This document shows, piece by piece, positions 478 through 59,070 of a stretch of DNA of 64,000 nt. The notes beneath the pieces are model-generated. The model had not been told where the DNA came from and ran no database searches. It saw only the letters and a program-made list of their open reading frames with translations. The stretch's first letter is position 1. Each line of letters starts with the position of its first letter. Source of the stretch: Ginglymostoma cirratum (Eukaryota); the NCBI GenBank assembly GCA_024137785.1, contig JAHRHZ010000068.1, positions 1,479,425 to 1,543,424 on the forward strand, given 5' to 3'. A program made the position numbers and the translations under genes.

Positions 478-758
478 GACCTAACCTGTCCATCTTCACA
501 CTCACCTATCTGCTGCACCCTTCCCATGGACCAATCACAATAGCCCCCTATCTGCACCCACCTATCGCTATGTCTCCTACCCTTTCCCCAGCAGCCCCCT
601 CCATTTATTTCTGGGCTCCCCTCCCTCATCCCAGTCCTCATGAAGGGTTTTGCCCAAAACATTGACTTTCCTGCTCCTTGGATGCTGTCTGATCTGCTGT
701 GCTTTACCAGCCTCACGCCTATAGACTCTGGCTTCCAACATCTGCAGTCCTTGTCTCC
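478..758 (+). mobile_element. Non-autonomous Penelope-associated short element with degenerate hammerhead motif
   Basis: AGTC-CTCATGA-AGGGTTTTGCCC-AAAAC-ATT-GACT (633-667), followed by the family tail ...cctgctcc..gatgctg..ctgctgtg..ccagc...catctgcagtcc. Confidence 0.7.
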
Positions 759-3700
759 CAGCGAAGGGTTCTTATTAACTTTAGGTTGGCTGGATAAAAC
801 CTTTGTTCTTGGGGTGATGGCTGGAGAATTAATCAATCCTAAAGGCATTTTTTTTGTATAATCATAGAAGAACACCAGAAAAAACTGCAATCGGCAAATC
901 AGTTGGAAGTTTTTTCAGGGGAGAGTCAAGAGTCTCTAAATTAGTATCTTTTCCTGATAGATGAAATTCTGCATGGTTCTGGCTAGAATTAATGTTTACT
1001 TCCATTAAACATTATTAGTTGGCCTTGTCAACAAGCCTGGTGTTTTGCCAGGTAGTATATTCATCATCCAGTTTCTGACAGCTTCAAATGAAAGCCATTT
1101 CACCTTCTTTGGTACCATTTTTGTATGAGCAGTGATGTCAACAAGTTAACAGACATGAAGGACGCAGGTAGGTTACTTTGCAATATCATAACTCATTCTT
1201 CAGCAGATTTGATCATTGACCACCCACACTTCATGCCTGCTTACCTTATGACCTAGAAGTGAAAAGGTGTACAGCAAACTGTGGCTAAAGCAGAGCTAAG
1301 ATAATGCTACAGTAGAAAGACATGGACACTGAAAATGAATTGCATCTTGTAGAAGATTATGACTTTCAATGCAAAATTTAAAGTAAGAGGTAAATGTTAT
1401 ATTTCTGTCAAGGAAGTTGCTAACAATGGGGTATGGTGAATGGGCAGGAATTATATTAGATGAATGGATCAGTATGCCATCAGGGAATAATCCACATTTT
1501 TTGTAATTTATTGCACTGCTGAGTTGTGAAGTGGATTTAAGTTTAAATGGCAATTCATATAAAATATCTAGTACAGCTCTCTTAAGTATCAGTCACAGTT
1601 TTCACTTTAGAGCTTTCAGTCTATCTCTAAGCCTGTATTTTACTTTCTTTATTTGACACCTGCTGTTTGTAATCTTATCACTCTTGAACTATAGTCTTAG
1701 AAGAAATTCTGGAACGGAAAAGCTGACCTTTGGTAATATGGAAAAAAAAAATTCAGACTACTATGAACGTCCAGCTGTGCTTGTCTTTTTGTGTTCTGTT
1801 TTCATCACTTTGTTCAGTTTCACTTAATAACATCTTCATCAAGAGATCACTGTGGTGCAGGGAACTGCATTTGCTGATCAAATTCAGTTGGATAACATTC
1901 TGATCCAGTAGCCTAAAACAGCAAAGATGTGCTTCGAATATAGAAGGATAAAGCAATGTGATTGATTGATTGCTTGTAACAAATAATGATAACTACATCT
2001 ATAAATATTATATACCATTCAGCACAATCCAAAAATAGTGTTGAGGGTAACACAGGGCTTCTTAGAACTGAGGAATGATGGGAAGATAGGACAACAGAAT
2101 GATGGAATGAACAGTAACTGTGTACACAAGGTTTCTCAATCAAGGTGCTGTAGGATTAAAATATATTTAGAAATATAGTATTCTTTAGATTAGTCTCTTT
2201 ATAGGACAATAGATAAGTAGAAAGCACAGATTTGAGGAATAAAAATGGAGACACCAAAGAACTATGGAGAAAATATGTATGATTAAGCTGATACATAACA
2301 CAGTGTGTGAATTATAAACTTTACTTGAAAAGGATGGAAAAAATGACAAGAAATCACATCCTCCCTCTCCACACAACTTGGCTTCACCCCAGATTACAAA
2401 TGATACAAAGTGTATGAGACTTGTCAGTGTTGAGTTGCGTTGTTAATGGCAGAGAGTATCAGAAAAGTGCTGCATAGTGTTCACATTGATACAGGTCTCT
2501 TTGGTATAGCTTGTAATTAACTCTTTATCATCTGAAAGAATCAGGTGAGGTGTAAAAAGCTATGGCTTTTTACTTACAATGGCACAAATGTATGAGGAAA
2601 ATTTATATCACATAACAGTGCTCCAGATGAAAAACAGTAAAACTTTAATCATGGCATGGTGAGTATTTTTTAATGTAAATGTGTCAGATAATCAATGGAC
2701 TTAAAGAGTTACCAAAATCCAATTGAGTGGTGTATGTTAAATTGAAATAGGTGCCATGGGGAGTTAAGACCCCGCCTTGTGCTCTGCTGGATGTAAGCCT
2801 ATCCTAGTTCCTGTCCTTCCCTTTTTCTTTTATCCTGCGGTGCTGCTAGACTATTAGAAGTACTGTCTGGGGTAATCTTTATAATACAGGTATTGTTTTG
2901 TGAGAAAATTCTTACATTTGAATGAAATGCATAAAGTGGAAGAGTTCAGTTTTAATGATAACAGTACACCCCTACACTCTACGATTTGTTTTCATTGGCA
3001 GGGCCTCCTGGATAAGAATGACATATTTATGCAGAAAGCTGGTATTCAATTTGGAATTTGTATGTATGGATGATGAACTAAACAGAACCTAGTTGTTTCT
3101 TTCCCTCCCTTGCCTATGGAAATGTGAAGTTATTGCAGACAAGTCTGAACCCATCTACACAGCACTTGGTCACCAGAATTAATAAATAGCGAATTCTTGG
3201 ATGATTCCAAGGGGACCAAAAGTGGTGATACTCTGTTTGCAATGCTGGGAAGTTAATAAAAAAAATCATTGCTGGAATAAAGTTTATGCACAGTAGTCTG
3301 TTTGTCCTGTATTTCAAACACCTGAATATGAGCCAGAAACACTATTGGCTGCTGTTTATTTCAAACTGATGCAGAGGGAAACATGCAAATAATGGAAATA
3401 AAAGACTATTGAATTTAAACTATTTAAATTGTTTACCCCATTTTTGACATTATTTATAGCTATATCTGAATCTTGGTTAATGGATTTTATATTGCAGCTC
3501 ACAGAAAAGTAATGAATAATAGCATTTTTTTGAACCATAACTTTCCTCTGTACATTATTACGATACAAAAAGTCATATTTCTTTGTACTGTAGTTATCTT
3601 TATATTTCTCCCACTTTATATATTGTACATCTGTACTAAGTATGACACTTGGAACTAACTTGAGTGTTTCCATTCTGAACCAGCGATAAGAGAGAAACAA

Positions 3701-3933
3701 ATGATTACTTAGCATCTTCAATGTAGTAAAAATGAGTGTTATAGTGGAGCAGAACAGACAATGACACGATAGGCATGATAGCTCAAAAGTGATAGATTTT
3801 TCCATGTCATTCATTCACTGAAATTTTCATCTCTGACAATATATACCTGTTTGTTACCTGAAAAAAAAAGTCTGTAACACTGATTTGCGATGGAAATTGC
3901 TGTATTTTCAAGTGTCAATAGATGTGTAAGAAA

Positions 3934-3983
3934 CAAGTTGGGCTAAAGGATCTGTTTCCATTCTGTACATCCCTATGACTCTA
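3934..3983 (+). repeat. 3' terminal fragment of HER1/CR1 LINE (or HE1 SINE tail)
   Basis: gggctaaaggatctgtttcca..ctgtacatccctatgactcta resembles the LINE 3' end at about 25985-26040. Confidence 0.6.
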
Positions 3984-4949
3984 AATAAAAGGCTAGTCCC
4001 AAAGGTGCAGCAATTTCCAAAAAATATATAATTGTTTGTATATTTCACAGCCGCAATACTTTTGTAGTCTTAATTTAGTGCTAAGAATGACCAACAAAAC
4101 CAATCATTACCCCAATTTCCAAGACATAAATATTTGAAATACCTGGATACTTGAAAAATGTGTCGTATCATCAAAAGATTTCAGTTTTGGATAAACATGC
4201 TTTCTGAAAAGCACCCAACATATGCATTTGTGGTGCCATTTTAATTTCCAGTAATGTTCAGTCCTTCTGGACAGACTGTTGGTTGTTAGGTGTGACTGCA
4301 AAGGCATTACTTTCTATTTATCATGATTCCACTTTCATGGCATTTTACTCAGCATGTGCTCAGTTATTTTCTTAAAAATAGCTTATTTCTGGTTTCCTTA
4401 GTGGTAGAGATTGTGTTTTTACTTTTTCTGCTAATTTATTGGTTACATCTCTGATGTTCCAGTCATTTTGAAGCATATGTGGAATATGCCTGGTTTACTT
4501 ATTGGTTTCATGGAAATATGCTGGTTTCCCAGTGGTTATGACGATGTTCCTGGTTTTCCTGGTGACTGAGTCAGTTGTGTGTCTGATGTGTATTTGGCCA
4601 GCAAGAATATATTTGAGTTTCTTGGATGAGTGGGAATGTCCCTGAGTTTCTTGATGCACATTGGCTATGTTTCTTGGATTATAGTTTATTAGATGTGGAT
4701 ACAGTTTTCTAGGCATGGTGTCCATTGGTTTTGTATTTGTTCTTACAAAGGTCTATCCACTTTATGGCAATTTGTACCCATTTTTCATGGTGCTTTGTTA
4801 ACTACACATCTGATGTATTTATGTTCAGTGTTTCTTGCTTTGTTGGTCACAGGTTCTGTTTTTGAATCTAAGTAGTCAGTGTAAATATGATTTTCATATT
4901 GATTTGAGGATAGATGAGTGGTTTAAAGAAGGGACAAATGAAAATACAT

Positions 4950-5095
4950 TTGTATAGTTGCTGCACAACTCCAGGAAATGGCAAAGGGCATCAAGTAAGT
5001 GGTTAGTTAATCAGTTCTGATTGTTTGGGAGTGGGCTAAACGTTGGTCAGGAAACTAGGAGAATTTGCCGTCTCTTTCAATAGTGTTACGGTTGT
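4950..5095 (-). repeat. Old DeuSINE (SacSINE1/AmnSINE1-like) fragment
   Basis: ...aaacgttggtcaggaaactaggagaatttgccgtctctttcaatagtg resembles the Deu-domain consensus as recalled; highly diverged. Confidence 0.35.
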
Positions 5096-8000
5096 GGACA
5101 TTTCAGCCCTTGATGTAATGCAGTGCGTTTCCTGTACCTTTGAGATGTGATATGCATGTATTTTGATTTTTCATGATGGATATTTCTTTGGAATTCTTTT
5201 GCAGTTTAGTGATGTACGTACTGTCCAACGTTTATTAAATTTATATTCAAGAAGTGAGGACTTTGGATAATGTATTGGTACCATTTTATTGAATTGTACT
5301 TTGCACTTTTCAGCATTCAGAATTTGGAAAATTTTAATTTGTTAATATTATTTTACAGAGACTGCAAGTGCTTTTGGAAAGTTACAATTTCAGTTCAATG
5401 CTTAATTCTGGAGAAACACAGTGTTAGTTTCTGTTGAATATAAAGTATTTGCAGTATTTCTATTGAAAATGTATTAAATAGTTGCTTTATTATTAAAATT
5501 ATATCTTTATACTAATCCAGTAAAGTTATGAATTGCATTTATTAACTATTTGAAATTGAACTATGAAAGGTATAAACTGAATTGGTCATCAGCAAATCTT
5601 TGGCAGTTGAGCCCCTCCTTCCAGAAGACTGCTTTATGCCCCTCAGCTATACACCTTGAATAAAAACTACTTGTGTAAATCAGTACAAGTAATCTGTAAA
5701 TATAATAAAGGATTTCTGACTTTCAGGTATGGCTTTGGCTTTAGGAGGGTTAATGAGTTATTGGGTGACTTCTTGCTGGAGGAAATCTATGTTGTTACTT
5801 GTTTTGCTGCCATGACAATGTCATTCTTCATGCTTTATAAATAACGCACAGTAATACAGAAAAACATTTCAACACATAGGAGTTTAGGTTCATCACAAGG
5901 CCAGAACAGAAGTCCACTCATGTTGTTATAATGCCCCCAACTGCTTATGGAGGAGGTTAACCTTTGTAAACTTGGAACATACTCTGTATTAAGAATATTG
6001 ACTGCAGGGGATAAAAAAAAAGTGTGTTGGATCATCCACTACTGTACGTTATGGGACTTTGATCATGTTTAGTTTTGCTTGAATTTTTTCTTAGTTTTTG
6101 TGTCAACTGCAATATCTGGAAATGGTTCACAGTAATTTTTGGGTAATTATAAATATATTGCAATTTCATTAGCAAGGATTTAGATGTTTACTCATTAGTC
6201 CATTTTTTTTTCAAGCACTATTGGACATTCCTCTGTGTTTAGTTAGAGAATATTGTAATAGAAAAGAAATTTTCCAGTATTGATAGCAACAGCTTGCAAC
6301 TAATTAAAGAGCATAAATGTTGAAATTGTGTGAGAATAATAATGGATTAAACTAATTAATTTTATCAAGAAATGGATTATCAGCAAATGTTAGCTGCAAA
6401 TATAATCATCAAAAACGGAATATATTTTCTTCTATTAATGCTGCACTATGTAAATATACTAGTCCGAGATGTGCAAGCAGATATGTTGCGAGAAGCAAGC
6501 CAGCGTGATCTTGATAAAAGATTTTGCCTGTGAACACCTAGCACCGGCTGGCAGAATGCAGGGCTGGCATATTCTGATATTAATTCCACAATTGTGCAAT
6601 GTTGGTTTGAAGGCAGGATAGCATTTTGGGCCCTGTATATCAGTTTATGCTGTGCCTTAATCTTGCAAAGCTGAACATGTGTTCAACAAAATATAAACCT
6701 CCTACCCACTCTATTTATATGGATTAAGAGCACTTTTTAGGTTAGTTACTGGTTATTTCTTCTGACTGATGGTGTAAGTCCAAGCTTTCCCATACTTGTT
6801 TGAAGTTTAAATGCTCTGGCATCTTTTTAATGCATTAAAGGTGCTCTATAAATGAATTTGTTGTTGTACTGATAGAATTTGCTTCTCGAATGTGAGTGAC
6901 CTGGCAGCTTTTTCTCTGACAATTGTACATGACTGGGAGAATGAAAACTGGACGTGCAGAATAAGCTGTTAAAAATGGGAGGGGAACTAGAACAATGGGC
7001 TGGGAGCAGGAGGCCATATCCACTGAGGAACTTCAGGGGTGATTTCTCTTAACCTTAATCTCAGTGAGGACTCAAAATGTCTTCACTTCACAAGAAGGTT
7101 GTGACTGAACTTTCCCGATTGCTATACCACAATTGAAGACTCAGTAGTACAAGGATTGCATTGTCGGGTGCTGTGAAGGTGCTCATCGTCGCCAAGCTGT
7201 ATTAGTTGCATTACTTCATCCAGTTACCACTTGACATATGAGCAACCACTGGCAATCCAATGTACAATACCACATTAGAAACTCGTGATTTTTGGGGAGG
7301 CTGGAGTGGAGGGGCCTTGGAGGGGGGAAGAGGGTGGGATTAATGTGAAATACATTGGGTGGCTCTCTGGATCGCTCTAGAGAAGTTCTACATAACTGAG
7401 TAATATCAAGGTTGGCGGTGTAATGAAGTAACAGCTCTTGCCATTGACAAATCAGATGAGAAGCTGAGGAGCAGAAGCATGTGAAGAGAGAAGTGCGAAG
7501 AAGGCTGAGAAATTAAAAGAGGAAGAGAAAGTGGCATCCTCTTTGTGCTCAGGCTATATGTGACAAAAGAAGTAACGAGCAATACGGGCAACCTGAACCA
7601 CACCTTCTCATTAATAAAGTTTCTTCTCTTTCTTCTGTCACTGACCTCTTGCCAACAAAGAAAAATAACTTTAAAAATCAAATTATACATTTAAGTTCCT
7701 TTCTGCATTCCCTTTATACCTGCCTTTTCATAACTGTTTGCTTGTCTTGTGCCACTTTTTTGAGATTCTGTAGCGGTTGCACCACAGACGGCCAAAGGTT
7801 GCTGACCATCATTGTTGATAGCCTTTGAGGCAACCTCAAGCTTTAGGCCCAGAAGAGCTGGTTTAACGCAGCACCTTCTCAGTTTGGGCACCCTGCATTG
7901 TCTTTTAACATATATTAGACTAGGATATACTTTGTTTTTGTTAAGTCAGCCTAATAAATCAAGACGTGAAAGGACATCTCAACTCTGAAAAGAAACACTG

Positions 8001-8820: not shown

Positions 8821-9042
8821 ACTAAAATGAGGAGGAATTTCTTCAGCCAGAGTGCGGTGAATGTGTGGATTTCATTGCCAGAAAAGGCTGTGGAGGTCAT
8901 CCTTAAGTGTATTTAAGACAGAGACAGAAAGGTGCTTGATGAATAAGGGGATCAAAAGTGATCTAGAGAAGGCAGGAGAATGGGGGTTGAGAAACATATC
9001 AGTCACGATCAAGTGATGGAGCAGACTTGATGGGCCAATAAT
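8821..9042 (+). mobile_element. Nested CR1 3' fragment
   Basis: atgaggaggaatttcttcagccagagtgcggtgaatgtgtgg encodes MRRNFFSQSAVNVW, the ORF2 C-terminal motif also seen in the 28244-28627 ORF (MRRHFFSQRVVGLW), followed by the 3' UTR. Confidence 0.75.
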
Positions 9043-17603: not shown

Positions 17604-17733
17604 AGGTAACAAGGTGTGGAGCTGGATGAACACAGCAGGCCTAGCAGCATCAGAGGAGCAGGAAGGCTGACGTTTCGGGCCTAGATCCTGCTTCAGATTC
17701 TCCAGCATCTGCAGTTCCTACTATCTCTGAAAC
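17604..17733. mobile_element. Penelope-associated short element with internal inversion and 15-bp TSD
   Basis: The minus-strand body (CTGAAGCAGGATCTAGGCCCGAAACGTCAGCC...) is joined to the plus-strand tail. TSD agtttattcgatctg (17589-17603) / agtttatttgatctg (17734-17748). Confidence 0.8.
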
Positions 17734-21509: not shown

Positions 21510-22204
21510 CGAGATAACAAGCATGGGGCTGGATGAACACAGCAGGTCAAGCAGCATCATAGGAGCAGGAAAACTTGACGTTTTGGGCCTAGACCCTTTT
21601 CTGATGAAGGGTCTAGGCCCGAAANNNNNNNNNNNNNNNNNNNNNNNNNNNNNNNNNNNNNNNNNNNNNNNNNNNNNNNNNNNNNNNNNNNNNNNNNNNN
21701 NNNNNNNNNNNNNNNNNNNNNNNNNNNNNNNNNNNNNNNNNNNNNNNNNNNNNNNNNNNNNNNNNNNNNNNNNNNNNNNNNNNNNNNNNNNNNNNNNNNN
21801 NNNNNNNNNNNNNNNNNNNNNNNNNNNNNNNNNNNNNNNNNNNNNNNNNNNNNNNNNNNNNNNNNNNNNNNNNNNNNNNNNNNNNNNNNNNNNNNNNNNN
21901 NNNNNNNNNNNNNNNNNNNNNNNNNNNNNNNNNNNNNNNNNNNNNNNNNNNNNNNNNNNNNNNNNNNNNNNNNNNNNNNNNNNNNNNNNNNNNNNNNNNN
22001 NNNNNNNNNNNNNNNNNNNNNNNNGCATCATAGGAGCAGGAAAACTTGACGTTTTGGGCCTAGACCCTTTTCTGATGAAGGGTCTAGGCCCGAAACGTCA
22101 AGTTTTCCTGCTCTTATGATGCTGCTTGACCTGCTGTGTTCATCCAGCCCCATGCTTGTTATCTCGGATTCTCCAGCATCTGCAGTACCTTTTATCTCTG
22201 ATAC
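21510..22204 (+). mobile_element. Palindromic Penelope-associated element with intact hammerhead core, spanning an assembly gap
   Basis: Inverted arms of about 90 bp. CTGATGA-AGGGTCTAGGCCC-GAAAC-GTC at 22072-22099. TSD aattgtgtgatgc at 21497-21509 and 22205-22217. Confidence 0.85.
21625..22024. other. Assembly gap (400 N)
   Basis: Run of N. Flanks 21554-21624 and 22025-22095 are identical. Confidence 0.99.
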
Positions 22205-22879: not shown

Positions 22880-24620
22880 ATGTGCTTTCTCTGAATGCTC
22901 TGAAATACCTCATTCACTGCATCTCTTTTGATGTATTCAATAACCTAACTTCCCAGTTCACTTCAACCAGCTCAGCCTTCATGCCTTCGTAATGGTCCTG
23001 ATTTAAATTTAAAGCGCTAATCTTAAATCGACTTTTCTCCTCCCTTAATCTGAATGTAGAATTCAATCATGTCATGACCACTATTAGCTAGAGGTGCCTT
23101 CACTGTTAGGTTATTAATTAACCCTTTCTCATTAAACCTTACTCGATCTAATATAGCCTGCTATTTGGTTGGCTGTAATGCGTGTTGCTCTGAGACCGTC
23201 CCAAAGATGCTCAGTGAATTCATATCTAGGCTGTTCTTGGCCTCATCCAGTCCATACATAGACTAAAATCACCCACAACATTTGCTGTACCTCTCTCACA
23301 AGCATTCTTTAGTTTTTCCTGTATACGCCATCTTGTGCTTACTACAAGGGAGCCTATATATGACTACCGCAAGTAACGTTTTATCATTATTATTGCTCAT
23401 CTTTACACAAATTGAGTTACAACTTGATCTCTGAACTATGTTAATTTCTCTTTATTGTACCGTTATCATTCTTAATTAACAGATGCATCCTCTGCTGTTT
23501 CCTAGTTTCCTGTCCTTCCATGTCTTCTACCCTCGAATATTCCAATCCCAGTCTGTCATCTTGGAGCCATGTCTCTGTAATGGCTACAAAGTCATACATA
23601 TGCAGTTCTCTTTGTGCTGTTTTGTAATGAATGCTGTGCATTTTCTGTCTTATTACTGTTTTTGAAACCTGTAAGCTTATGTGCTGGTGCATTCTTAGGT
23701 TTGTGTACTCTGTCCCTTCTTGCAATGTCCTGATCATAACTGCCTTATTGTTACCTTACGTTCCTTGCCTTGTTTTCTGTATTTAATTTATCACACATTC
23801 CCAAATTTGATCTTTTGCCACACTAATAGAGCTCTCTTTATTGCTGTCATTATACAGTTTACCAAAATATTGGTTCCATCATATTTTAAGTGAAGATCCT
23901 TCCAACAGTACAATTTCCACAGTTCCAGTGCCAGTGCCCCCTGAATTTTGGCCGGCAGGGTGGATCAGTGGCTAGCACTGCTGTCTCAAAGCACTATAGA
24001 CCCAGGTTAAATTCCACTGTCAGGTGGTTGTCTGTGTGGAGTTTGCACATTCTCCCTCTGTTTCCATGGGGTGCTTTGGTTTCCTCGAACAGTGCAAGTC
24101 AGGTGGATTGGCCATGCTAAATTGCCCCATAGTGTTCAGGGATGCATAGGTTAGGTGGGTAGCCATGAGAAATGCAGGGGTACAGGAGGAGGGTGAGTCT
24201 GGGTGAAATGCTGTTTGGAGAGTTCGTATGGACTTTTTGGGCCGAGTGGCCTGTTTCCACACTGTAGGGATTCTATGGAATTCTCTGGATTCTGTGGAAT
24301 GGAAACCCATTTATCCCACATCAATATTTTACCCACACATTTAATTCTCATTACGTTTGGCTTGGGCTAATTTGCTCATTGCTCAGCTTGCAATCCAGAG
24401 GTTTGATGTTATGCTTTTTAGTTTAGCCTCTGGGCTGCTCATACCCCTTGAACAGAATCTGTTTCTTGGTTCTGCCTACACCATTTGAATTTATATGGAC
24501 CATGGTAACTGGATCCTCCCCTTCCAGTATAAGTTGCCATCAACTCCAGAGTAGATGTCCCAAAACCTGCTCCCAAGTAGCCGACATATGTATTGGGTTG
24601 CAGAGAACCGTGTCACTTCC
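22880..24620 (-). mobile_element. Degraded CR1 LINE (ORF1 end and endonuclease region), interrupted by an HE1 SINE
   Basis: Minus ORF 23441-23737 contains YDFVAITETWL, the APE endonuclease motif. Flanks resemble the 39590-42990 copy. Confidence 0.65.
23951..24277 (+). mobile_element. HE1 SINE (V-SINE), full length
   Basis: tRNA-derived head (gtggatcagtggctagc...ggttaaattcc), V-domain tgtctgtgtggagtttgcacattctcc...ggtttcctc, gattggccatgctaaattgcccc, and HER1-type tail ggcctgtttccacactgtagggattctatg. Confidence 0.9.
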
Positions 24621-24804
24621 CTGTTTGTATTGTCCCTTACTATCACTACAGTTCTGGTTCTATAAAAACTGCTACAGTTTCCTGTCTCATAGTGCCATAG
24701 TCATTTTGCTTATCTAGCCTGAAATCACTACTTTCAACTAAATGGGATGTGAGAACGTCAGACTTGTTGACCAGTTAAAAAGACTTGAGGCTACTGCCCT
24801 TCTA

Positions 24805-26040
24805 CCTGCAAGGAAGAGGGTTGATGAGTGCAGAGTGGTGGATATGATCTTTATGCACTTAAGTAAGACATTTGACAAGGTCCCTCACGGTAGAGTGGTA
24901 AGCAAGGTTAGATCACACAGAATACAGGGAGAACTAGCTATTTGGATACAGTACTGGCTCAAAGGTAGAATACACGGGGTGGTGATGGAGGGTTGCTTTT
25001 CAGACTGGAAGCCTGTGACCAGCAGTGTGCAACTAGGATCGGTGCTGGGTCCACTGCTTTTTGTCATTGATATAAATGATTTGGATGTGAACATAGGAGG
25101 TATGGCTAATAAGTTTGCAGATGACACTAAAATGGGAGTTATAGTGGACAGCAAAGAAGGGTACCTCAGAGTACAGCGGGATCTTGATCAGTTGGGCCAA
25201 TGGGACAAGGAGCAGCAAGATGGAGTTTAATTTAGATAAATATGAGGGGTTGCATGTTGGAAAGGCAAATCAGGACAGGACTTATACACTTAATGGTAAG
25301 GTCCTAGGGAGTGTTGCTGAACAAAGACACCTTGGAGTGCAGGTTCATAATTCCTTGAAAGTGAAGTCACAGGTAGATAGGATAATGAACATGGTGTTTG
25401 GTATGCATGTCTTTATTGGTCAGTGCATTGAGTATTGGAGTTGGGTGGTGATGTTGCCGCTGTACAGGACTTTGGTTTGTCCACTTTTGGAGTACTGCAT
25501 AAAATTCTGGTCTCCCTGCTATGGGAAGGATGTTGTGAAACCAGAAAGGGTTCAAGAAATATTCATGAGGATATTGCCAGGGTTGGAGTGTTTGAGCTCT
25601 AAGGAGAGGCTGAGCAAGCTGGGGGCTATTTTCCCTGGAGCATCGAGGCTGACCTTATAGAAGTTTATAAAATCATGAGGGACAATGATAGGGAGAATAG
25701 CCAAGGTTTTTTTCCTAGAGTGGGGGAGTCCAAAACTAGAGAGGGCATAGGTTTAAGGTGAGAGGGGAAAGATATAAAAGGGATCTAAGTGGCAACTTTT
25801 TCACGCAGAAGGTGGCATGTGTATGGAATGAGCTGCCAGAAGTAGTGGTGGAGTCAGGTACAGTTACAACATTTAAAAGGCATCTGGATGGGTATATATG
25901 AATAGGAAGGCTTTAAAGGGATAATGGGCCAAATGCTGGCAAATGGGATTAGATTTATCTATGATATCTGGTTGGCATGGATGAGTTGGACCAAAGGGTC
26001 TGTTTCATGCTGTAAATCTCTATGACTCTATGACTGTATG
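24805..26040 (+). mobile_element. 5'-truncated HER1/CR1 LINE, RT C-terminal half plus 3' UTR
   Basis: ORFs 24742-25230 (KTFDKVPH, GSVLGPLLF, KFADDTK) and 25184-25660 (LYRTLVCPLLEYC) are joined by a frameshift. Ends in ctatgact tandem repeats. Confidence 0.95.
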
Positions 26041-27749: not shown

Positions 27750-30073
27750 ATGCCATCTTTGTCAGCTCCACTTAAGCAGTGCACAGCATGCAAGGATAAT
27801 GTGGCAGACTGTGTAGGGAGTGCACTGCAATGTCCCAAGACCACTCCCTCCCCTGGACAGACCCAAACATCAGAACCTCATCTTCAACAGCCCTGAATGA
27901 AGAATGGGGTGCATTGAATTAATGCTTGACCTCAGTCGGGAGTTTGCGCATTGAAGTCAATGGCTGTAGTCACAGAGTGTAGCTGTTGACCCCCAGTAAC
28001 CATTCCTGTAAGACATCTGGCTTTCAAATTCAGCAGGAGCAGGACTTCTCAAGGACAAACGAGTGATGGCAGCTCCTAGGATACCTGGCGTCGATTTCCA
28101 AGATAGCGGTAACAACGATCACAGATGATTTGCCCATTGACAGTTTGGAATCCATTTCCATAAGACCATAAACATAGGAGTGGAAGTAAGGCCACTCGGC
28201 CCATCGCGTCCACTCCGTCATTTAATCATGGCTGATGGGCATTTCAACTCCACTTACCCGCACTGTCCCCGTAGCCCTTGATTCCTTGCGAGATCAAGAA
28301 TTTATCAATCTCTGCCTTGAAGACATTCAACGTCCCAGCCTCCACTGCACTCCGTGGCAATGAATTCCACAGGCCCACCACTCTCTGGCTGAAGAAATGT
28401 CTCCTCATTTCCGTTCTAAATTGACCCCCTCTAATTCTAAGGCTGTGCCCACGGGTCCTAGTATCCCCACCTAACGGAAACAACTTCCCAGCGTCCACCC
28501 TTTCTAAGCCATGCATTATCTTGTAAGTTTCTATTAAATCTCCCCTCAACCTTCTAAACTCTAATGAATACAATCCCAGGATCCTCAGCCGTTCATCGTA
28601 TGTTAGGCCTACCATTCCAGGGATCATCCGCGTGAATCTCCGCTGGACATGCTCCAGTGCCAGTATGTCCTTCCTGAGGTGTGGGGCTCAAAATTGGACA
28701 CAGTATTCTAAATGGGGCCTAACTAGAACTTTATAAAGTCTCAGAAGCACATCGCTGCTTTTATATTCCAACCCTCTTGAGATAAATGACAACATTACAT
28801 TCTCTTTCTTAATCACGGACTCAACCTGCAAGTTAACCTTTAGAGAATCCTGGACTAGCACTCCCAGATCCCTTTGTACTTCGGCTTTATGAATTTTCTC
28901 ACTGTTCAGAAAATAGTCCATGCCTGTATTCTTTTTTCCAAAGTGCAAGACCTCGCATTTGCTCACGTTGAATTTCAGCAGCCATTTCCTGGACCACTCT
29001 CCGAAACTGTCTAAATCATTCTGTAACCTCCCCACCTCCTCCGTATTACCTGCCTGTCCACCTAACTTTGTATCATCAGCAAACTTCGCCAGAATGCCCC
29101 CAGTCCCTTCATCCAGATCATTAATATATAAGGTGAACAGCTGCGGCCCCAACACTGAACCCTGCGGGACACCACTTGTCACCGGTTGCCATTCCGAAAA
29201 AGAGCCTTTTATCCCAACTCTCTGCTTTCTGTCAGACAGCCAATCCTCGATCCATGCCAGTAACTCACCTCGAACACCATGGGCCCTCACCTTACTCAGC
29301 AGCCTCCCATGAGGCACCTTATCAAAGGCCTTTTGGAAGTATAGATAGATAACATCCACTGGGTTTCCCTGGTCTAACCAACTTGTTACGTCCTCAAAGA
29401 ATTCTAACAGGTTTGTCAGGCACGACCTCCCCTTACTAAATCCATGCTGACTTATTCTAATCCGACCCTGCACTTCCAAGAATTTAGAAATCTCATCCTT
29501 AACGATGGATTCTAGAATTTTACCAACAACCGAGGTTAGGCTAATCAGCCTATAATTTTCCATCTTTTGTCTTGGTCCTTTCTTAAACAAGGGGGTTCCA
29601 ACAGCGATTTTCCAATCTGTTGGGACTTCCCCTGACTCCAGTGACTTTTGAAAGATCACAGCCAACGCCTCTGCTATTTCCTCAGCCACCTCCCTCAGAA
29701 CTCTCGGATGCAGCCCATCGGGCTTCTATTGATGAAGTTGAACCTTTGGCCCAAAGAGCATCACTGAAGTGCAGAATCGTACCGTAAGCGGCTCGGAGAT
29801 GTGCCACGATAATGCAGTGAGACTGGTACATGTGGAATGCCAATTTCTGTGGATGTCGGGGTGTGCCTATAACCATGTCCTGAGGTGATGCTGCCGGGTG
29901 TCCAAGATGGAGGTCCAGAGCAGCAGGTGCTGAGCTGGAGTCCCTGATTTTCTGAGAACCTCATTGGTTGGAAAAATTTCATTTTTGGCTAGGTCCTTGC
30001 TCAACATCCCAGTTGATTTTTCCCAAATTTCTCATCATGGTCCATGTCATTCAGGGCTGTGAAAATTCCACCC
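27750..30073 (-). mobile_element. PIF/Harbinger transposase pseudogene remnant, split by a CR1 insertion
   Basis: Minus-strand motifs occur in HARBI1/DDE_Tnp_4 order: GIPHV, FINR|[CR1]|GFQTVNGQIICD, IDARYPRSCHHSFVL, WLLGVNSY, GLLKMRF*CL, TVCHIILACCAL. TIR-like GGGTGGAATTTT ends at 30073. Confidence 0.75.
28160..29722 (-). mobile_element. Relatively young 5'-truncated CR1 LINE (complete RT domain and 3' UTR)
   Basis: ORF 28688-29689 (333 aa: NYRLISLTSVVGK, FQKAFDKVPH, GVPQGSVLGP, FADDTK) continues in frame after one TGA into ORF 28244-28627. Confidence 0.97.
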
Positions 30074-40941: not shown

Positions 40942-41232
40942 AGGCAGTGTCTAGTGTGGTAGGAGCAAATTACTGCAGATGCTGGAGTCTGAGCTGAAAA
41001 CAAAAAGTGCTGGAAATCACAGCAGGATGGCAGCATCCATGGACAGAGAGCAAGCTACCGTTTCAAGTTTAGATGACTGTTAAGCTCTGATGAAGTGTCC
41101 TTTAGACTCAAAACATTAGCTTGCTCTCTGTCCATGAATGATGCCATCCTGCTGTGATTTCCAGCACTTTTTGTTTTCAGTACAGACTCCAGGATCTACA
41201 GTAATTTGCTTCTAACACACTAGACACTACCT
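40942..41232. mobile_element. About 290-bp palindromic element with decayed hammerhead motif, nested in CR1
   Basis: The left arm aggcagtgtctagtgtggtaggagcaaattactgcagatgctgg... is the reverse complement of the right arm ...ccaggatctacagtaatttgcttctaacacactagacactacct. Central CTGATGA at 41087-41093. Confidence 0.85.
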
Positions 41233-43013: not shown

Positions 43014-43192
43014 ATAGAATCATAGATTCCATATAGTTTGGAAGCAAGCTCTTTGGCCCATCAAGTTCGTACCATTCGTCTGAATGGCATCCCACCCAGA
43101 TCCACCTCCTACCCTATCCCTGTAACGCTGCATTTCCCGTGGCTACTCCACCTAGGCAATTTAGCATGGTCAATCCACCTAATCTACACATG
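43014..43192 (-). mobile_element. HE1 SINE 3' half
   Basis: Reverse-complement match to the 3' half of 23951-24277 (ggcaatttagcatggtcaatccacct; catagaatcatagatt tail). Confidence 0.85.
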
Positions 43193-45922: not shown

Positions 45923-46086
45923 GCTGGAGAAACACAGCAGATCTGGCAGCATCTGCGGAGAGACAAATAGAGTTAAATTTTGAATTTAACATGCCTCTTT
46001 TTGCATCAATACTGTCATGCTGGACTCAAACATTAGCTCTGTTTCTCTCTCCACAGATGCTGCCAGATCTGTTGAGTTCCTCCAGC
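45923..46086. mobile_element. Older palindromic Penelope-associated element
   Basis: gctggagaaacacagcagatctggcagcatctgcggagaga and tctctccacagatgctgccagatctgttgagttcctccagc are inverted arms. The remnant ggactcaaacattagctc resembles 41105-41125. Confidence 0.75.
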
Positions 46087-50129: not shown

Positions 50130-50335
50130 ATGGCACACACACAAGATCATGCAGGCTCCAAGATTTTGCAGAGGATATCTTCCTGGAGGACGTAGCAGAG
50201 GATCTTTCAACCACATATATGCAAAGCATAGGCAGCATATTGCTTGAAGGCCAAAGCCAGGAGTCAGGCCCTGAGGATCTGGATGCATTGCCTTAAGACA
50301 TTGAGTGGCCTCACACAGGCAGTCAGAGTCAATGA
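50130..50335 (+). mobile_element. Remnant of Harbinger Myb/SANT (trihelix) ORF
   Basis: QAPRF... and KARSQALRIWMHCLKTLSGLTQAVRV resemble the trihelix pattern R-x-W-x-Q-C-R-K-K-F-N-D-L. Confidence 0.45.
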
Positions 50336-51825
50336 ATGCATCTTCAAATGCTGTATATTGCCACCTGCTCCAGACATTGCTGAATTCACTCGTCAGTCAG
50401 CTTACCAACAATCTCTGCTAAAACTTATAGCTAACTAACATTCATATACTTCACTGGAACTCTAATTTGTCAATAAATCACCCTCACATTCACATTTCAC
50501 AGCATAATATACTGTTTTTTTTTACCCCCTTCTCCCCCTAATCAAAAATAAAAGTTACCACAGTGAAGTAGGTTGAATAACAATTACTGACACAATCACA
50601 TGATCTTTCTAGACTGTGTAATGTATAACTGGAGTTGGCAGATGTACTTGTATAGCTTGATTCCCAGGGAGGAGATGGTGACGGCAGTTGTTAGAATATT
50701 TATGGCTGAGGCCATGGCCAGCAGAAAGGCAAACACCACTGGAAGTCGGGGTGTCTTCATATTTAATTCTACCTCTCATATCTTGCACTCCGGATCCCAC
50801 AGACAGTTTGATTTACAAGTTACAGATGATAGAAGCATTCATGTCCTACTTTCTCCCTTTCCATGTGCAACAATTTTGTTCGTTTGCCTTTTTCCTCCCG
50901 ATTAGATGTCTGAAAAGTGGTAGTTTTGACTCCATCAGCAGTGGAGGAATAACAAAGAAATAGTGATCATAAAGACCCAAATGTCTACATAATGTTTGCA
51001 CAACACCAATCTCCAAAACTGGAACTGTCTGTAATGTAGATGATGACTTGGAATTGGGAGCTGCACATGCGAGATACTAGGCTGGTTTTGGCTGCATCTA
51101 GGGCAGGGGCAAGGATACTACATGTGCTAATTCACTGGAAGATGAGGCCACACAAACTCTGTTGAAACCTTGAGTAGGAATACAAGGCCAGTCAAAGGCA
51201 CCCATGATAGTTATCAAATGCACAAGTGTATTTATTGCTTTTTCAATGCTATTTGGAATTATTTGATTAAAACATTGATTATATCATGGTGTTTATTCTC
51301 TTATTTTAGTCACAAGCATATCTTGTCAACATGGACATATGAAAGGTAAGCTGTTGGCCAGTTTGTAAACTGAGAGTTGGGATTGGTTTCATTTCTGTCA
51401 GTTTTGGATAGTTCTTTGTGGGCAGTACAGACAGAAGGGTCAAGTCTAGATAGCCTCCCTCCTTCTTTTTTCTGTTTCCCCTCCACTTCACTTGTTTCAA
51501 GGGCTGCCCCTTTATGGTGGGACGTTCTGCAGCATGCAGCAGAGTTGAATGGATCTGAGCCAGATGATAGAACAGGTAACAAGGTCTTTGTTTTCCTTAA
51601 TAGTAGGTTCACTCACAGAATGTAGTCTTACAGATCTCGGCCTCCTAATACTATTCTAGTGTCCCACTTGTCACTTTCTTTATACTCTTTTGAGACTGAT
51701 CTGTCCTTATGTGTGATCTTAGGCTTTAACCAATGCCCATTACCTCAAAATATTTAACAACATAGTCAAAAATATGATTCTTGTTTCCACACTGTGGCGG
51801 TTCTATGACTTCCCCACTCTAAGAA

Positions 51826-52197
51826 AAAGACCTTGGCTATCCTCCCTATTGTTGCCGCTCATGATTTTATAAACCTCTATAAGGTCACCCCTCGGCCTCT
51901 GACGCTTCAGGGAAAATAGCCCCAGTCTATTTAGCCTTTCCCTATAGCTAAACCCTCCAGTTCTGGCAACATCCTAGTAAATTTTTTCTGCATCCTCCCA
52001 AGTTTAACAACATCCTTCCTTTAGAACTGTGGTCAGAATTGTATGCAGTATTCCAAAAGTGGCCTCACCAATGTCCTGTACAACTGCAACATGATATCCC
52101 AACTCCTATACTCGGTGTTATGACCAGTGAAGGCAAGCATGCCAAGCTCCTTCTTCACCACCCTGTCTACCTGTGACTCCACTTTCAAGGAACTGTC
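51826..52197 (-). mobile_element. HER1/CR1 ORF2 fragment
   Basis: SSLKVESQVDRVVKK...LYRTLVRPLLEYCIQF in ORF 52033-52260. Confidence 0.9.
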
Positions 52198-53853: not shown

Positions 53854-54450
53854 TGTATTGTCTTAGATATGTGCTAGCAATAGCTACCATTGTGTTTCAA
53901 AGGATCTATGCCATAGTGATGTCAGATCGCAGGGAACTGGAGTCTGAGTCTGCAAGACTTTAGATGAGGTGTGCTTTCGTACTGATCTGTCTGTATGGTT
54001 GTATTCAATAAAGCCTGTTGCAGTTAATTCACCAGAGTATAGAATTCACGTTATTACATGATGGTGGCAGTGACTAAACAGACAGACCTGGAGGCAAAGG
54101 CGCAGGCAGCACTAAGTGACAGACGTTGAGGTTCATCCAGATACTGAACTACGGAGGGGAAAGCCCCATAAAAGTCCACAGCAAGGAGCATGGCATTACA
54201 AACAGCAGAGAGGGCATTTAAGACGACCTGAATCAGATCAAGTTACAGATCGAAAAAAAAACACAACTGCGGGATATCGACTGTATTGTGGGCAAGCTCT
54301 GAATTCTTTCTTAACCTGACAACTGTCTTTCTGGACATTGTAGGACTCCAGAGTGGCCAGGCAGCACCATAGAGGGTGCAGAACTGAATTCATGCCACAA
54401 CAGAAACCAAGGCAACTGGATAGAAAAGATGCCAATTGCTTTTGTAATCC
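53854..54450 (+). mobile_element. Gypsy-like LTR with PBS and degraded internal sequence
   Basis: TGT...ATTACA (53854-54058) with AATAAA at about 54007, followed by tgaTGGTGGCAG (PBS-like) and purine-rich gag-like sequence. Confidence 0.45.
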
Positions 54451-56499
54451 TCACAAGGCAGTGTGAAGAAGTTCCACAGATGGAAAGAAAGCTCTGTTCA
54501 AATTACAGAAACTCATGGACTCAATTCCAGCATTTCCCATTCATCACAGGAGTTCATATTAGAAGAAAAAAAGGCAAATATTTTTGAAGGCACACCTGCC
54601 CAGCAAATGTTCATTCTTGGGGACATTCTGGACAGGATAGCCTATACTTTTGCCATCTACCACTGCACACTGAGAGACATTACCATGCAATCTTCATCTG
54701 TTCAACTGTATGACCGAAGAAGAATTAACCTCATGTTAAAAAGCAGTATTAGTGAAGATTACAATACAAAAATAATCTTATTATCATAACACTGTCTACA
54801 AGCAGCTATGTCCGCTGCTCAGCAGGGGAGCCTGCACAGCCATCAACTCCCTTCTTAAATTCGTGGTAGTTGCCTGCCAAGCATAAACGAGTGAGTTTAG
54901 GCAATAGCCCTCAAGACTTATTAGAGGGCTAGGAAAGCTGAACACTGCATACCACATTACCCTCAAGGCAGCTGCCAACACTCATCTGCTTGTAAAAGAG
55001 GAAATTGAGACATGGTCCATAACTATTTTATTTCAAACGTCACACAGACAGCTACATAGTGCTCTGCTGTTGTGCCAGTTGCCAAGCTAAGTAGATTCAT
55101 TAGAATTTGTCAACCTAAATGTTTAAATGGGTTTCCTGCACGATACCAGCCTAAGGTCCACCTAAGCCTGTTTAATTTTCCTTATTTTATGGATTTATGT
55201 GTGCAGGGTGTGCAAATGGGTTGATCAGTGGAGCCATCAACCATGTAAACAGCATTTCCATGTTCAGTAAAGTCTCCACCATGCTTTTTGTCATGCTTCA
55301 AATTAGCCTGCATTTTATTTTGGGTTTGGCATGTGATTTATCAGTTGGAAATCCTTTTTGCTACCAACCTCTCCAACCTTCCATTTATCCAGTCTGGGAA
55401 CCAACATCATTGCATGCTGGCTTGCCTTCACGAGCAGTGTTCTTCCATGGAGGATAAGTCCTGAGGTGCAACTTGAAACTGGGCTGTTCGGTTCAGCAAC
55501 AGAGCCATTATTGCTCCCTAGAAGTTAAAATTTTCGCAACTTATGTTGAACAATATTTAACAATCAAAACCATTATTGTGGTGAAGCAAACTGGTGTAAG
55601 AAGGTACAGTAGATAAACGTTGAACTTCTTATAATTGGCTCTATCTATGACAAGATCTGACAAAAGAATTTCAATGTGTTTTGATTGTAGTGTCGCATCC
55701 CACTTAGCATTTTTACTGTATAATACATTGTATAAAAGTACTGTATTAAAGGATATACAAAAATCAAAAAAAGACATTTATTAATGGCTTACAATTTCTA
55801 GGCTCTGCTTAGATTTTACCTTCATATCTAAAATCATAAACCATTTCTATCAGGAAGCCTTTGTTTTTAGCAGTGTCTGTAATATTGGGTAAGACAGTGA
55901 ATGGAGCAAAGCGCTTCAGTTTCTGTCACTTGTTCATTGGAATGACATGAGCCTGTATATCAGGTCCTTTATTTGGTAACTGAAGAATGATTATTTTGTT
56001 TGGTTGTACTGATTTTGTTTATAATCAGGTATCACCTTTATAAGAGTAAAAGCATAAAAGTAGTAAAAAATTAACCAAGGCATATTCCACTAGATTTCAT
56101 TAAATTTATAGCTTTTATTTCATAAAAGGAAGATATAGCTATCCTTATAACACTGGATTTGGACTGACTTTTGAAATACAAACTTTATGCATTATACTCT
56201 CAAGAAGCATTTGTTTGCTCATCTGTATGTAGTCTGTAGCACAAGGGAACTGTATGAGTGACTTTAACAAAAGGTGCCAAGTATGTTTCTTTGCCTCGAT
56301 GTGCATCTTGTCATCACCACCAGACACCTAGACATGCTGAGGCATTCACTGCCATATGGAACCAGTTATTTTAATATAATTTTTTTAAAAATTGAAATTG
56401 TTTCTCGTTTAACAAAATCAAGATGCACCATTTCAAACACATTTACATGGAATAGCAAACATTTTTAGAGGCTTTCAACCTTTTAAGTATTGGGGCTTT

Positions 56500-56886
56500 T
56501 TCTATTCATTCACAGGGTGAGAGCATTCCTGGCAAGGCTAACATCTTTTGACCATCGCTATGGTCCCTAACCAAGTGGCTTGCTAAGACATTTCAGAGGA
56601 AGGGTAATAGTTAGCCACATTACAATAAGTCTGGAATCACATACAGGTGAGGCTGGATCAGCACAATAGATTTCCTTTTCTAAACAACATTAATAAACCT
56701 TATGGATTTTTACACCCATTGGTGTATACATTTCACTGATACTCTTTAGTTGAACAATTTTTTAAAAAATCTACCAAATATACATTCCTCTGCTGGCATG
56801 GTAAGGTTTAAATTTCTATCTCCAAATCTCTAGGAAAGGTTTTGGGATTACTAGTCCAGTAACATTACCTCAATGCTATTATTCCC
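56500..56886 (-). mobile_element. tRNA-derived SINE, same family as 41331-41671, more diverged
   Basis: Collinear similarity from ttctattcattca...ggcaaggctaacat through gattactagtccagtaacattac. Confidence 0.7.
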
Positions 56887-57734
56887 TATAAACTATTCCT
56901 TCATTTCATTACAGTACAGTGCTAATGCTCCACCAAGTTACAAGTGGCATCATTTGAATCTAGCAAAGTGAGGCTAGTGGAGAAGCAACTTACGTTTCCC
57001 TGATTTGGACCACTGCAGCATTTGGGGCAGTTTACAATCAGGAACTGCTGCTGAAGGAAGAAATGAGGAGTTTTTTGAATCCATATTTCTGTAGAAAGAA
57101 ATATAGAAAAGTATTGAGATTTCCTTTTGCTGCTGTTGTGCACCTTAATCTGACTTTCTCGGCACCAACTTGATTTTCAGCCTTCTCCAAACCTTATCCA
57201 CAGGAAAAGGGCACTTATTCTTGTCTTCAAGATGCCACCTGGGAGTCAGATTTATAGGACTTGGTTGGCTGCTCATTTTACACAAAATTCTTATCTTCAC
57301 TTGTTTCTTGGTAGCTTGGTGTTGCTTTCGGTGTTATACTGCTGTAATGCTATGAAACGTCCATCTCAGCTATCACAGATGACGCTATCACGTAGCTGCA
57401 ATTCCTGATCAGTATATTCCTAATTATCCTCCTCAACATTATCATCATTAGCTTCCTCCTCGTGTTTGCCTGTTGTTGTGCTGGATCTGCAGGCAAGAGG
57501 AGATAAATGAGAATTGGTGATCCTTTTCTTTGGGATGAGGGAGGTAGAGAAGATGCAAGGCTGTGGAAGTTGGAATATTGTGTAGTGTTGTGCAGCTGCT
57601 GTTTTAAGACCAGCTGGTGATCACGTGGAAAGAAGAAAGGAGAGAATTGTTACTTGACTGCTCTGCTGAGACTTGAGGACTCCTTCACTTAGGGATTTAT
57701 CTGTTCTATCTTCAAAACCAGCTAGTAAACTTTG

Positions 57735-58205
57735 AGGTAAGGCTGTAGATTTGCTCGCTGACCTGATGTGTTTGGTTGCGGATGTTTCGTCACCCTGCTA
57801 GGTAACATTGTCAGTGTGCCTCCTGGTGAAGCGTTGGTGTTCTGTCCCTCTTGTTATTTATATGCCTCGGTTTGCTGTGGTGGTTGGCATTACGTCCGGT
57901 TCTGTTTTTCAGTGGTTTGCATATCGGGTCAAGTTCAGTGTGTTTGCTGATAGAGTTCTGGTTGGAATGCCAGGCCTCCAGGAATGCCCTGTCATGTCTC
58001 TGTGTGCCTTGTGCTGTTATGGATGTGTTGTCCCAGTCGAATTTGTGTCCTTCTTCTTTGTCTGTGTGTATTGAGACCAGTGAGAATTGGTTGTTCGTGT
58101 ATACTTATTGTTAGCTTTCTTCCAGTTTGGCCTATGTAATGTTTCTCACAGCCTTTGCATGGTATTTTGAATATTATGTTGGTTGTGGCTATGGGATCCA
58201 AGCTA
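57735..58205 (-). mobile_element. Penelope-like element 3' remnant: GIY-YIG endonuclease plus pLTR with hammerhead motif
   Basis: NIIFKIPCKGCEKHYIGQTGRKLTISIHE, then after a frameshift SLVSIHTDKEEGHKFDWDNTSI...RAFLEAWHSN. Downstream is CTGACAA-TGTTACC-TAGCAG-GGTGAC-GAAAC-ATC (57814 to 57781). Confidence 0.9.
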
Positions 58206-58945
58206 CAAATCTTCTTAAAAACTTCAAACTTTGGAGGTAGTTGCATTTATCATCTCCATTTTGATGCCCACACCTTCTGGCGTTTGATCCCAAATGATTC
58301 TCAGTGGTTAATTTTGTAGAAATCTAATACAAATGTAAATTTTAATAATTATTAATTTTATGAATATTGCTTGCTTCTTTCACCTGTCTCTAATAGGTTA
58401 TTAGAGTTGTGATAGAACCAAGCAGTATTCTTCTCATGCCTGTTTGACCCCCATCGGCTACAAAAGTTTGCCACTCAGCTGTCTTCTTGTACACTACAAA
58501 GAAATTTCCAAGTAGTTCTGAGGTTTTAGTGTGTTTTACACTAACTCTTGTACAAATGGGAATGTAAATGACTAGACCAGGAAAGTCATGTGCATTGATC
58601 TCTAGAGAATAACTATGAGTATAACACCTTTATTTGTGTCTTGGCCAATTAGATATATACTTTTGAATTAATGCTTAGTCTAGGTCACTGTGAGAAAGCC
58701 TGTTCAACAATTCTAGGAAATAGATAGAATTAATTCTTAACCATTTTCCCTGCTTTCCGCTCCAATCCATCCATGTCTACTGCTCTGATCTACAAGGCTT
58801 ATTTTTCTCTCCCCTCAACCCTGCTGACTAGCATCTTCCCAATAAAAAAAATCTGACCACTGTGCTTTTGTCACCCAAAATCCCACATCTCATTGTACTC
58901 ACAAGAAAGTTGAATTTTGAAGCACTGAAAGCTTCTTTAAAAGCA

Positions 58946-59070
58946 GAAGGGTCTAGGCCCGAAACGTCAGCCTTCCTGCTTCTCTGATGCTGCTTGGCCT
59001 GCTGTGGTCATCCAGCTCTACACCTTGCTATCACAGGTTCTCCAGCATCTGCAGTTCCTACTATCTTTGA
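58946..59070 (+). mobile_element. 5'-truncated Penelope-associated short element
   Basis: gaagggtctaggcccgaaacgtcagccttcctgct...ctccagcatctgcagttcctactatct; same family as 17604 and 21510. Confidence 0.85.

What the first reader, a model, noticed from the sequence alone, without database searches (positions are those of the whole stretch)
478..59070. Several distinct short-element subfamilies share a hammerhead architecture with covarying helices, alongside a candidate autonomous Penelope partner
Seen: related motifs at 633-667, 17665-17696 (minus), 21601-21624/22072-22099, 41082-41122, about 46000-46040 (very decayed), 57781-57814 (minus) and 58946-58968. Helix I differs between families but stays complementary: AGUC/GACU at 633 and AAGCU/AGCUU at 41082. 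Helix II is GGG/CCC, GAGUC/GACUC (reconstructed) or GUUACC/GGUGAC. Most core mismatches fit CpG decay (CGAAACG to CAAAACA; CUGACGA to CUGACAA). Inference: covariation supports a genuine ancestral ribozyme. About 7 copies in 64 kb suggests a very abundant retrozyme-like system in this genome. The PLE-hammerhead link is already known; I cannot tell whether these shark non-autonomous families have been described as ribozyme carriers.
Basis: partly seen in the sequence, partly recalled or inferred. Interest (0 to 1): 0.7.

Follow-up and report, generated by a model that had tools for sequence, protein, structure and literature searches.

The report
Penelope retroelement stubs starting at hammerhead
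These short repeats are cut-off and mirror-image end pieces of very common Penelope-type jumping genes, carrying a known tiny ribozyme motif; they are ordinary in kind, but so many begin at the motif's front edge that this is likely where the element's RNA starts, which suggests the RNA is copied uncut.

Summary
The motifs are real: minimal hammerheads of the kind published for Penelope-like elements (PMC4209133). They are not separate non-autonomous families. Each Neptune-type motif family (A, B, C, D) is the 3' end (pLTR) of a long RT + GIY-YIG element elsewhere in this genome. The window's 22 kb arm is 132 of 137 nt identical to the end of a copy with a 609-aa open frame. The 57.8 kb Penelope is a dead Poseidon-type stub with an unrelated end, not the partner. 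21601 and 22072 are one palindrome duplicated across an assembly gap. Only 1 of 7 sites has an intact core. Helix changes between families are compensatory, on a biased sample. The added value is mechanistic: genome-wide, 46% of young arms are lost in the 11 nt before the core, against 9% in the next 11 nt, while 1 of 100 starts at the cleavage site. A TATA-like box lies about 30 nt upstream in four families. Most likely the RNA starts at helix I and is copied uncut. The scan has reported the same elements in at least 10 genomes, including this reading.

The parts
477..770 (+). 5'-truncated 3' end of long Neptune-type family C: 3' UTR, TATA-like box 602-609, hammerhead 633-667 (core damaged), pLTR and tail
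   Evidence: 29 other copies align; several extend more than 1.4 kb upstream into RT, Zn-linker and GIY-YIG coding sequence
17604..17733 (-). Family A (older variant) insertion: tail-less sense arm starting at the core, joined through shared CTGA to an inverted tail-only arm (17693-17733); 15-nt target duplication with one mismatch
   Evidence: (D6, I5)
21510..22204 (+). One young family A palindrome (about 215 nt when intact): tail-less inverted arm plus sense arm with the only intact core in the window (22072-22103) and a tail; 13-nt target duplication
   Evidence: (I4, I15); sense arm 132 of 137 nt identical to the 3' end of long copy L232
21625..22024 (.). Assembly gap of 400 N with 71 nt duplicated on both sides; makes one element look like two
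   Evidence: D7; many other young palindromes also abut N runs
40958..41213 (+). Older family B palindrome centred on AGCT (helix I 5' strand), hammerhead 41082-41122 with CpG-type core changes; unusually both arms carry the tail and 13 nt of flank are repeated inverted
   Evidence: (I3); parent copies with GIY-YIG upstream L267, L270
45919..46090 (+). Old palindrome of a D-like family; pLTR recognisable, first core box not
   Evidence: (I10); D-type long copy with endonuclease upstream in L154
57735..58240 (-). Dead Poseidon-type stub: inverted tail, GIY-YIG fragment, 3' UTR, own hammerhead 57781-57814 (CpG-type core changes), about 12-nt target duplication
   Evidence: the 84-aa piece has no Pfam hit at E<=0.01 but aligns to the Neptune endonuclease motif (E 2e-05)
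58946..59068 (+). Family A solo arm that starts inside the core (no CUG), with tail; no clear target duplication

Best explanation
These are truncated and inverted end pieces of protein-coding Penelope-like retrotransposons (four Neptune-type families and one Poseidon-type), and the short ones are likely dead-end copies of the first 95-135 nt of an RNA predicted to start at the first base of the hammerhead. Shown: long parents with RT and GIY-YIG carry the same ends; the pLTR is followed by the ORF start in tandem copies; insertions have variable target duplications, one optional tail, and 5' ends piled 3-6 nt before CUGANGA; a TATA-like box lies 29-31 nt before the A that opens helix I. Inferred: RNA polymerase II starts at that A; the element's RT starts inside the RNA at one of two sites (with or without the tail, as shown in vitro for anole Poseidon, PMC11167929) and runs off the uncleaved 5' end, giving a solo arm; priming on both target strands, or fold-back of the new DNA, gives the palindrome. 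Solo arms and palindromes lack the TATA box, so they would not be transcribed by themselves, and the palindrome's RNA is predicted to fold into one hairpin that hides the ribozyme. The hammerhead itself is probably functional in the parent, as a dimer or with protein help (untested).
For: Parents: family C, A (Pfam RVT_1 E 1.4e-05, below its curated cut-off, and GIY-YIG E 3.8e-05 above it), B (tblastn E 2e-25), D (E 7e-44). The 150 best endonuclease matches are stop-free, 97-100% identical, out of 116,421 first-look candidates. Exact counts: 26,131 arms reach -3, 14,116 reach -14, 12,806 reach -25. Of 55 arm rows examined from the group reaching -3 but not -14 (a few duplicated by overlapping loci), 48 end at -3 to -6, 1 at -10, 2 are mutated long copies, 4 abut gaps. 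Family B, 30 copies picked by a downstream motif: 12 long, 12 solo, 6 inverted; all 18 short ones stop matching the parent within 6 nt of the core. Cleavage site: 51,040 arms reach +28 and 41,981 reach +20; of the 16 in the first 100 that differ, 1 starts at the cut site. Repeated short restarts at 5' junctions and jumps from -4 into the ORF start fit a physical RNA end. TATA spacing. Target duplications of 9 nt or more in 11 of 12 young palindromes, 0 of 132 mismatched controls. Palindrome folds at -58.5 kcal/mol as one hairpin.
Against: No 5'-end RNA data: the poly(A) run shows no pile of starts anywhere on the element. No clear extra G from a cap at 5' junctions (6 of 9 solo rows at -4, but with duplicates and target-templated cases). 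In one family C copy the box is shifted and degenerate (L116). D. virilis Penelope uses a TATA-less internal promoter (PMC2377424, passages), so solo arms might still be transcribed. The youngest family has the weakest helix I (one G-U pair; older A variants 2-3 pairs), and the monomer does not fold as a hammerhead. No uninterrupted full-length ORF was seen among 20 long loci.
Confidence: 0.7

Rival explanations
1. Same Penelope origin, but the pile of 5' ends marks an RT stall or a microhomology-favoured join at the folded ribozyme or its T run, on an RNA that continues upstream; no start site is involved.
For: Ends spread from -6 to +7; many joins share T or AT with the target; no start pile in RNA reads.
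Against: The pile sits at the same offset in family B, whose junction is AGCT not TTT; TATA-like boxes at matching spacing in four diverged families; a structure would be expected to stall RT before, not after, it is copied (inference).
Confidence: 0.15
2. Solo arms and palindromes are self-propagating non-autonomous elements (retrozyme- or SINE-like) with an internal promoter, mobilised in trans by Neptune.
For: Short copies are about 40% of young arms; some junctions recur exactly (but that sample was picked by likeness to the window junction); internal promoter in D. virilis Penelope (PMC2377424); tandem retrozymes reported in one chondrichthyan (bioRxiv 10.64898/2026.07.22.740005).
Against: Junctions vary in samples not picked on the junction; short and long copies share the same sequence variants; adjacent same-strand units occur at 3 distinct places among 253 arms counted (12 pair rows); no tandem array in the window; palindrome RNA would bury the core.
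Confidence: 0.12
3. MITEs of a DNA transposon, with the hammerhead look a by-product of inverted repeats.
For: Three window elements are long inverted repeats of 170-290 nt.
Against: Arms are unequal by one tail, target duplications vary from about 9 to 17 nt, the same sequence ends RT + GIY-YIG elements, and the hammerhead helices lie within one arm.
Confidence: 0.01

Closest known systems
Minimal hammerheads (min-HHR) of metazoan Penelope-like elements, Cervera and De la Pena 2014 (PMC4209133; parts 1-2 of 4 read)
   Same: Type I core with no real helix III, palindromic CG at 15.2-16.2, one extra base after A9, G10.1-C11.1, several families per genome with compensatory changes, mostly single motifs from truncated PLEs, some pairs on opposite strands; found in fish Xena, Poseidon and Neptune.
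   Different: Sharks are not named in the parts read; helix II here is shorter (4-6 bp); that paper does not map copy 5' ends to the ribozyme edge in the parts read.
EN+ PLE insertions with inverted 5' pLTR and one 30-40 bp tail (PMC3846280, PMC8557442; passages read)
   Same: Inverted pLTR, optional tail at one end, target duplication, assembly trouble, solo pLTRs; a TATA box and initiator-like sequence noted in a rotifer pLTR.
   Different: Here the minimal form (two pLTR arms and nothing else, or one arm) numbers in the tens of thousands for one young family, with a sharp 5' boundary at helix I.
Anole Poseidon in vitro system, Frangieh et al. 2024 (PMC11167929; parts 1-2 of 4 read)
   Same: Two internal RT start sites that define the tail; both target strands extended; uncleaved RNA is the main template; no RNA-seq ends at the cut site.
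   Different: Poseidon clade, in vitro; the present data are genomic counts for Neptune-type families.
Animal non-LTR retrozymes (bioRxiv 10.64898/2026.07.22.740005; parts 1-3 of 5 read, supplements closed)
   Same: Type I hammerhead, related to PLE pLTRs, dispersed monomers, present in one chondrichthyan.
   Different: Retrozymes are defined by head-to-tail arrays of two or more ribozyme units; the window elements are single or head-to-head arms contiguous in other copies with a coding parent.

Membership tests
PLE minimal hammerhead | Core boxes CUGANGA, GAAA, UH | tested here: met
   Invariant or nearly so across five families; intact in 1 of 7 window sites
PLE minimal hammerhead | Helices I and II kept by compensatory change | tested here: met
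   5 of 8 pairs change on both sides, 94% of cells paired, 0 of 500 shuffles reach the score; copies were picked with patterns that include helix letters, only five lineages, Poseidon rows gapped in helix II
PLE minimal hammerhead | Extra base after A9, G10.1-C11.1 pair, palindromic 15.2-16.2 | tested here: met
PLE minimal hammerhead | Lies in the pLTR of an RT + GIY-YIG element | tested here: met
PLE minimal hammerhead | Self-cleavage (dimeric or protein-assisted) | not testable with these tools
   No pile of read ends at the cut site in one poly(A) run, which cannot show it either way
Neptune/Nematis-type EN+ PLE (families A-D) | RT followed by C-terminal GIY-YIG in one frame | tested here: met
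   609-aa frame in L232, frames up to 850 aa
Neptune/Nematis-type EN+ PLE (families A-D) | Cys linker CX2-5CxxC between RT and EN | tested here: met
   Present in A and C; not read for D, frameshifted in the B copy; absent in relatives of the 57.8 kb stub
Neptune/Nematis-type EN+ PLE (families A-D) | Inverted 5' copy, one tail, target duplication | tested here: met
Neptune/Nematis-type EN+ PLE (families A-D) | RT phylogeny separating Neptune from Nematis | not tested
   No named reference set at hand; 'Neptune' rests on the linker and on Neptune being the linker-bearing clade reported in vertebrates
Non-LTR retrozyme | Head-to-tail array of two or more ribozyme units | tested here: not met
   None in the window; 3 distinct places among 253 family A arms in fetched loci
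Non-LTR retrozyme | Non-coding unit independent of a coding parent | tested here: not met
   54% of young arms continue into the parent 3' UTR
Non-LTR retrozyme | Circular RNA from double cleavage | tested here: inconclusive
   No back-join at the cut site among the 15 joints shown of 179; poly(A) selection would lose circles
MITE | Equal terminal inverted repeats and short fixed target duplication | tested here: not met

The most novel reading that the evidence does not exclude
In these Neptune elements the hammerhead is the very first structure of a capped mRNA, so cutting removes the cap with 32 nt: a self-decapping switch that sorts RNA between translation, copying and decay. The TATA-bearing 3' ends of more than 12,000 young truncated copies act as scattered promoters that feed short ribozyme-headed templates to the RT in trans, which is why stubs flood the genome.
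Probability: 0.2. Interest if true: 0.65.

Novelty: new member of a known kind. Interest (0 to 1): 0.3.

Why it matters
The role of the hammerhead in Penelope elements and the origin of their inverted, tailed insertions are open questions. A young family with over 40,000 identical ends gives exact genome-wide counts showing that copies start at the ribozyme's front edge and almost never at its cut site. This supports in vivo what was seen in vitro for anole Poseidon, and names one base to test by 5' RACE. It also warns that short-read assemblies break and duplicate these palindromes. As a class of element it is not new.

Tried and rejected
Rfam scan: no hammerhead family at E<=10; minimal hammerheads lack helix III, so this is no evidence against. 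DNA search with an 81-nt arm returned nothing because very common words are skipped; counts came from pattern searches. No RNA holder was listed in the run index; raw poly(A) run X20 laid 44,164 of 12.9 million records with equal strands and no start or end pile, X21 laid 22. These reads probably come mostly from copies inside host transcripts, so they were not used for the start site. A second read-laying over a pLTR-ORF junction gave no answer, which leaves that junction unexamined in reads. Cap-derived extra G: inconclusive. 57.8 kb stub as partner: rejected. Fixed master palindrome: rejected after samples not picked on the junction. Host gene: 0 of 88 open stretches hit Pfam at E<=0.01 (88 of 116 listed were given), so gene context is unknown. 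Random sample: 34 of 76 stretches were over 90% N, so density rests on 398 kb. R-scape, Repbase and Dfam were not available; supplements of the bioRxiv retrozyme paper, which list chondrichthyan families, could not be seen and may bear on novelty. Literature searches that found no description of these shark families.
Full report
Setting. The window is G000:C68:1479425-1543424 of a 4.36-Gb assembly. Positions below are counted from the C of CUGANGA as 0, so the predicted cut lies before +28.

Observation. Hammerhead-like sequence is present at every listed place. A strict descriptor finds one site, a relaxed one two, and 30 shuffles give none. Only 22072 has an intact core. The 21601 and 22072 motifs are one insertion: 71 nt are duplicated around a 400-N gap and a single 13-nt target duplication brackets it. 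The 58946 copy begins inside the core. The 17665 copy takes its CTGA from a join with an inverted tail. At 46000 the first box is gone.

What the elements are. Searches of the own genome gave copies of each family. Family C (478-770) extends over 1.4 kb upstream in several of 29 other copies, into RT, a cysteine linker and GIY-YIG. Family A ends long young copies: the 150 best endonuclease matches are stop-free and 97-100% identical, 20 fetched long loci show open frames up to 850 aa, and a 609-aa frame hits RVT_1 (below its curated cut-off) and GIY-YIG. The window's 22 kb arm matches such an end at 132 of 137 nt. Family B has GIY-YIG upstream in 2 of 30 copies and parent 3' UTR in 12 of 30. 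A D-type end follows an endonuclease in L154. The linker marks A and C as Neptune or Nematis type (PMC8557442, passages). The 57.8 kb element is a 500-nt stub whose relatives lack the linker and whose end does not align to A-D: a Poseidon-type copy (clade name by absence of the linker and recalled motif), neither autonomous nor the partner.

Architecture. Palindromes have one arm with and one without a tail of about 36-40 nt, and long copies show the same plan with kilobase arms. Target duplications of 9 nt or more flank 11 of 12 young palindromes, against 0 of 132 controls. This is the published form of EN+ PLE insertions (PMC3846280; PMC8557442), and the two arm ends fit the two internal RT starts of anole Poseidon (PMC11167929).

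Abundance. One exact 40-mer of the young family occurs 41,981 times, its reversed control 0 times. In 76 arbitrary 10-kb stretches, 398 kb were readable and held 88 arms in 76 elements, about 190 per Mb. If typical, that is several hundred thousand elements; nearly half the sample was N, so this is rough.

Covariation. On 15 real copies of five families, 5 of 8 pairs change on both sides and no shuffle of 500 reaches the score. Caveats: the copies were picked with patterns containing helix letters, there are only five lineages, and the Poseidon rows misalign in helix II. The youngest family has the weakest helix I. Within families, changes are decay: 13 of 15 point changes in GAAACGUC are CpG-type. 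The features match the min-HHR of PMC4209133, including mostly single motifs from truncated elements.

Where copies start. Exact counts fall from 26,131 (reaching -3) to 14,116 (-14) to 12,806 (-25): a 46% loss, then 9%. Of 55 arm rows from the lost class, 48 end at -3 to -6 (a few rows are duplicates). In the first 30 places, 17 end between -6 and +7, one more abuts a gap at +20, and 12 run further upstream. Family B behaves alike. At the cut site there is no comparable step: 51,040 to 41,981 over 8 nt, explained by CpG decay, with 1 of 100 arms starting there. In long copies of A, B and D a TATA-like box begins 31 nt before the A at -4, and most C copies have one at about the same place. That A lies in an initiator-like context (consensus recalled) and is the first base of helix I in all four families. 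In L081 and L261 the pLTR runs on into the ORF start seen in L213, so the pLTR heads the coding RNA.

Mechanism. Most likely the RNA starts at helix I, the RT starts inside it at one of two sites and runs off the uncleaved 5' end. One primed strand gives a solo arm; two primed strands or fold-back give a palindrome. Fold-back is hinted at by the window's 41 kb element and L030, which have two tails and an inverted flank repeat. Stubs lack the TATA-like box and palindrome RNA folds as one hairpin, so they are probably dead ends. The start site, the priming route and cleavage are inferred, not shown. RNA reads confirm that family sequence is common in poly(A) RNA, with 1,176 reads diverging at -3, but show no start pile.

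Against this reading. No direct 5'-end data; no clear cap G; D. virilis Penelope has a TATA-less internal promoter (PMC2377424), so short copies might be transcribed; stalling or microhomology could shape part of the pile.

Novelty. The ribozyme type, its link to Penelope and the insertion form are in print. Six searches found no paper describing these shark families; Repbase, Dfam and the retrozyme preprint's supplements were not seen. The scan holds 37 similar findings in at least 10 genomes, and several reach the start-site reading; I had noted it beforehand. Verdict: new members of a known kind, with a useful, testable mechanistic count. Interest 0.3.

Noticed in passing
window 40942-41232; L030; L028; window 455-790: Inverted, not direct, flank repeats: 13 nt at the 41 kb palindrome, 10 nt at L030 (both have two tails), 14 nt at L028, 11 nt around the 478-770 stub. 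3 of 25 family B palindromes show this. It suggests a fold-back copy that ran through the element into the target.
   Followed up: partly
L261/L262, L081, L092, L185: Tandem units in which a pLTR plus the first 15-170 nt after the tail are joined to a second arm at -4 or to the 3' UTR, as if RT jumped between RNAs.
   Followed up: partly
L213 4400-7880: Near full-length young Neptune-type copy with ORF start, one frame change and a gap; no uninterrupted full ORF was seen among 20 long loci.
   Followed up: partly
L232 7819-7955 and L261: The pLTR after the hammerhead reads as a short open frame starting MLLDLL or similar in families A, C and D, ending in family A at a stop that overlaps the region just before the main ORF start; possible upstream ORF.
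   Followed up: no
window 28247-29725 (-), 24742-26000 (+), 51807-52192, 62727-63347: LINE reverse-transcriptase remnants (Pfam RVT_1); CR1-like by recalled motifs.
   Followed up: partly
window 24092-24126 and 43155-43189: Two copies of another short repeat in opposite orientation (I19); probably a SINE (label recalled).
   Followed up: no
L062-L090: Poseidon-type copies often carry inverted arms of variable length; their TATA-like box lies further from the core, with a small hairpin before helix I.
   Followed up: no
L036-L057, L293-L331: Young palindromes very often abut N runs, so the assembly probably undercounts or duplicates them.
   Followed up: partly
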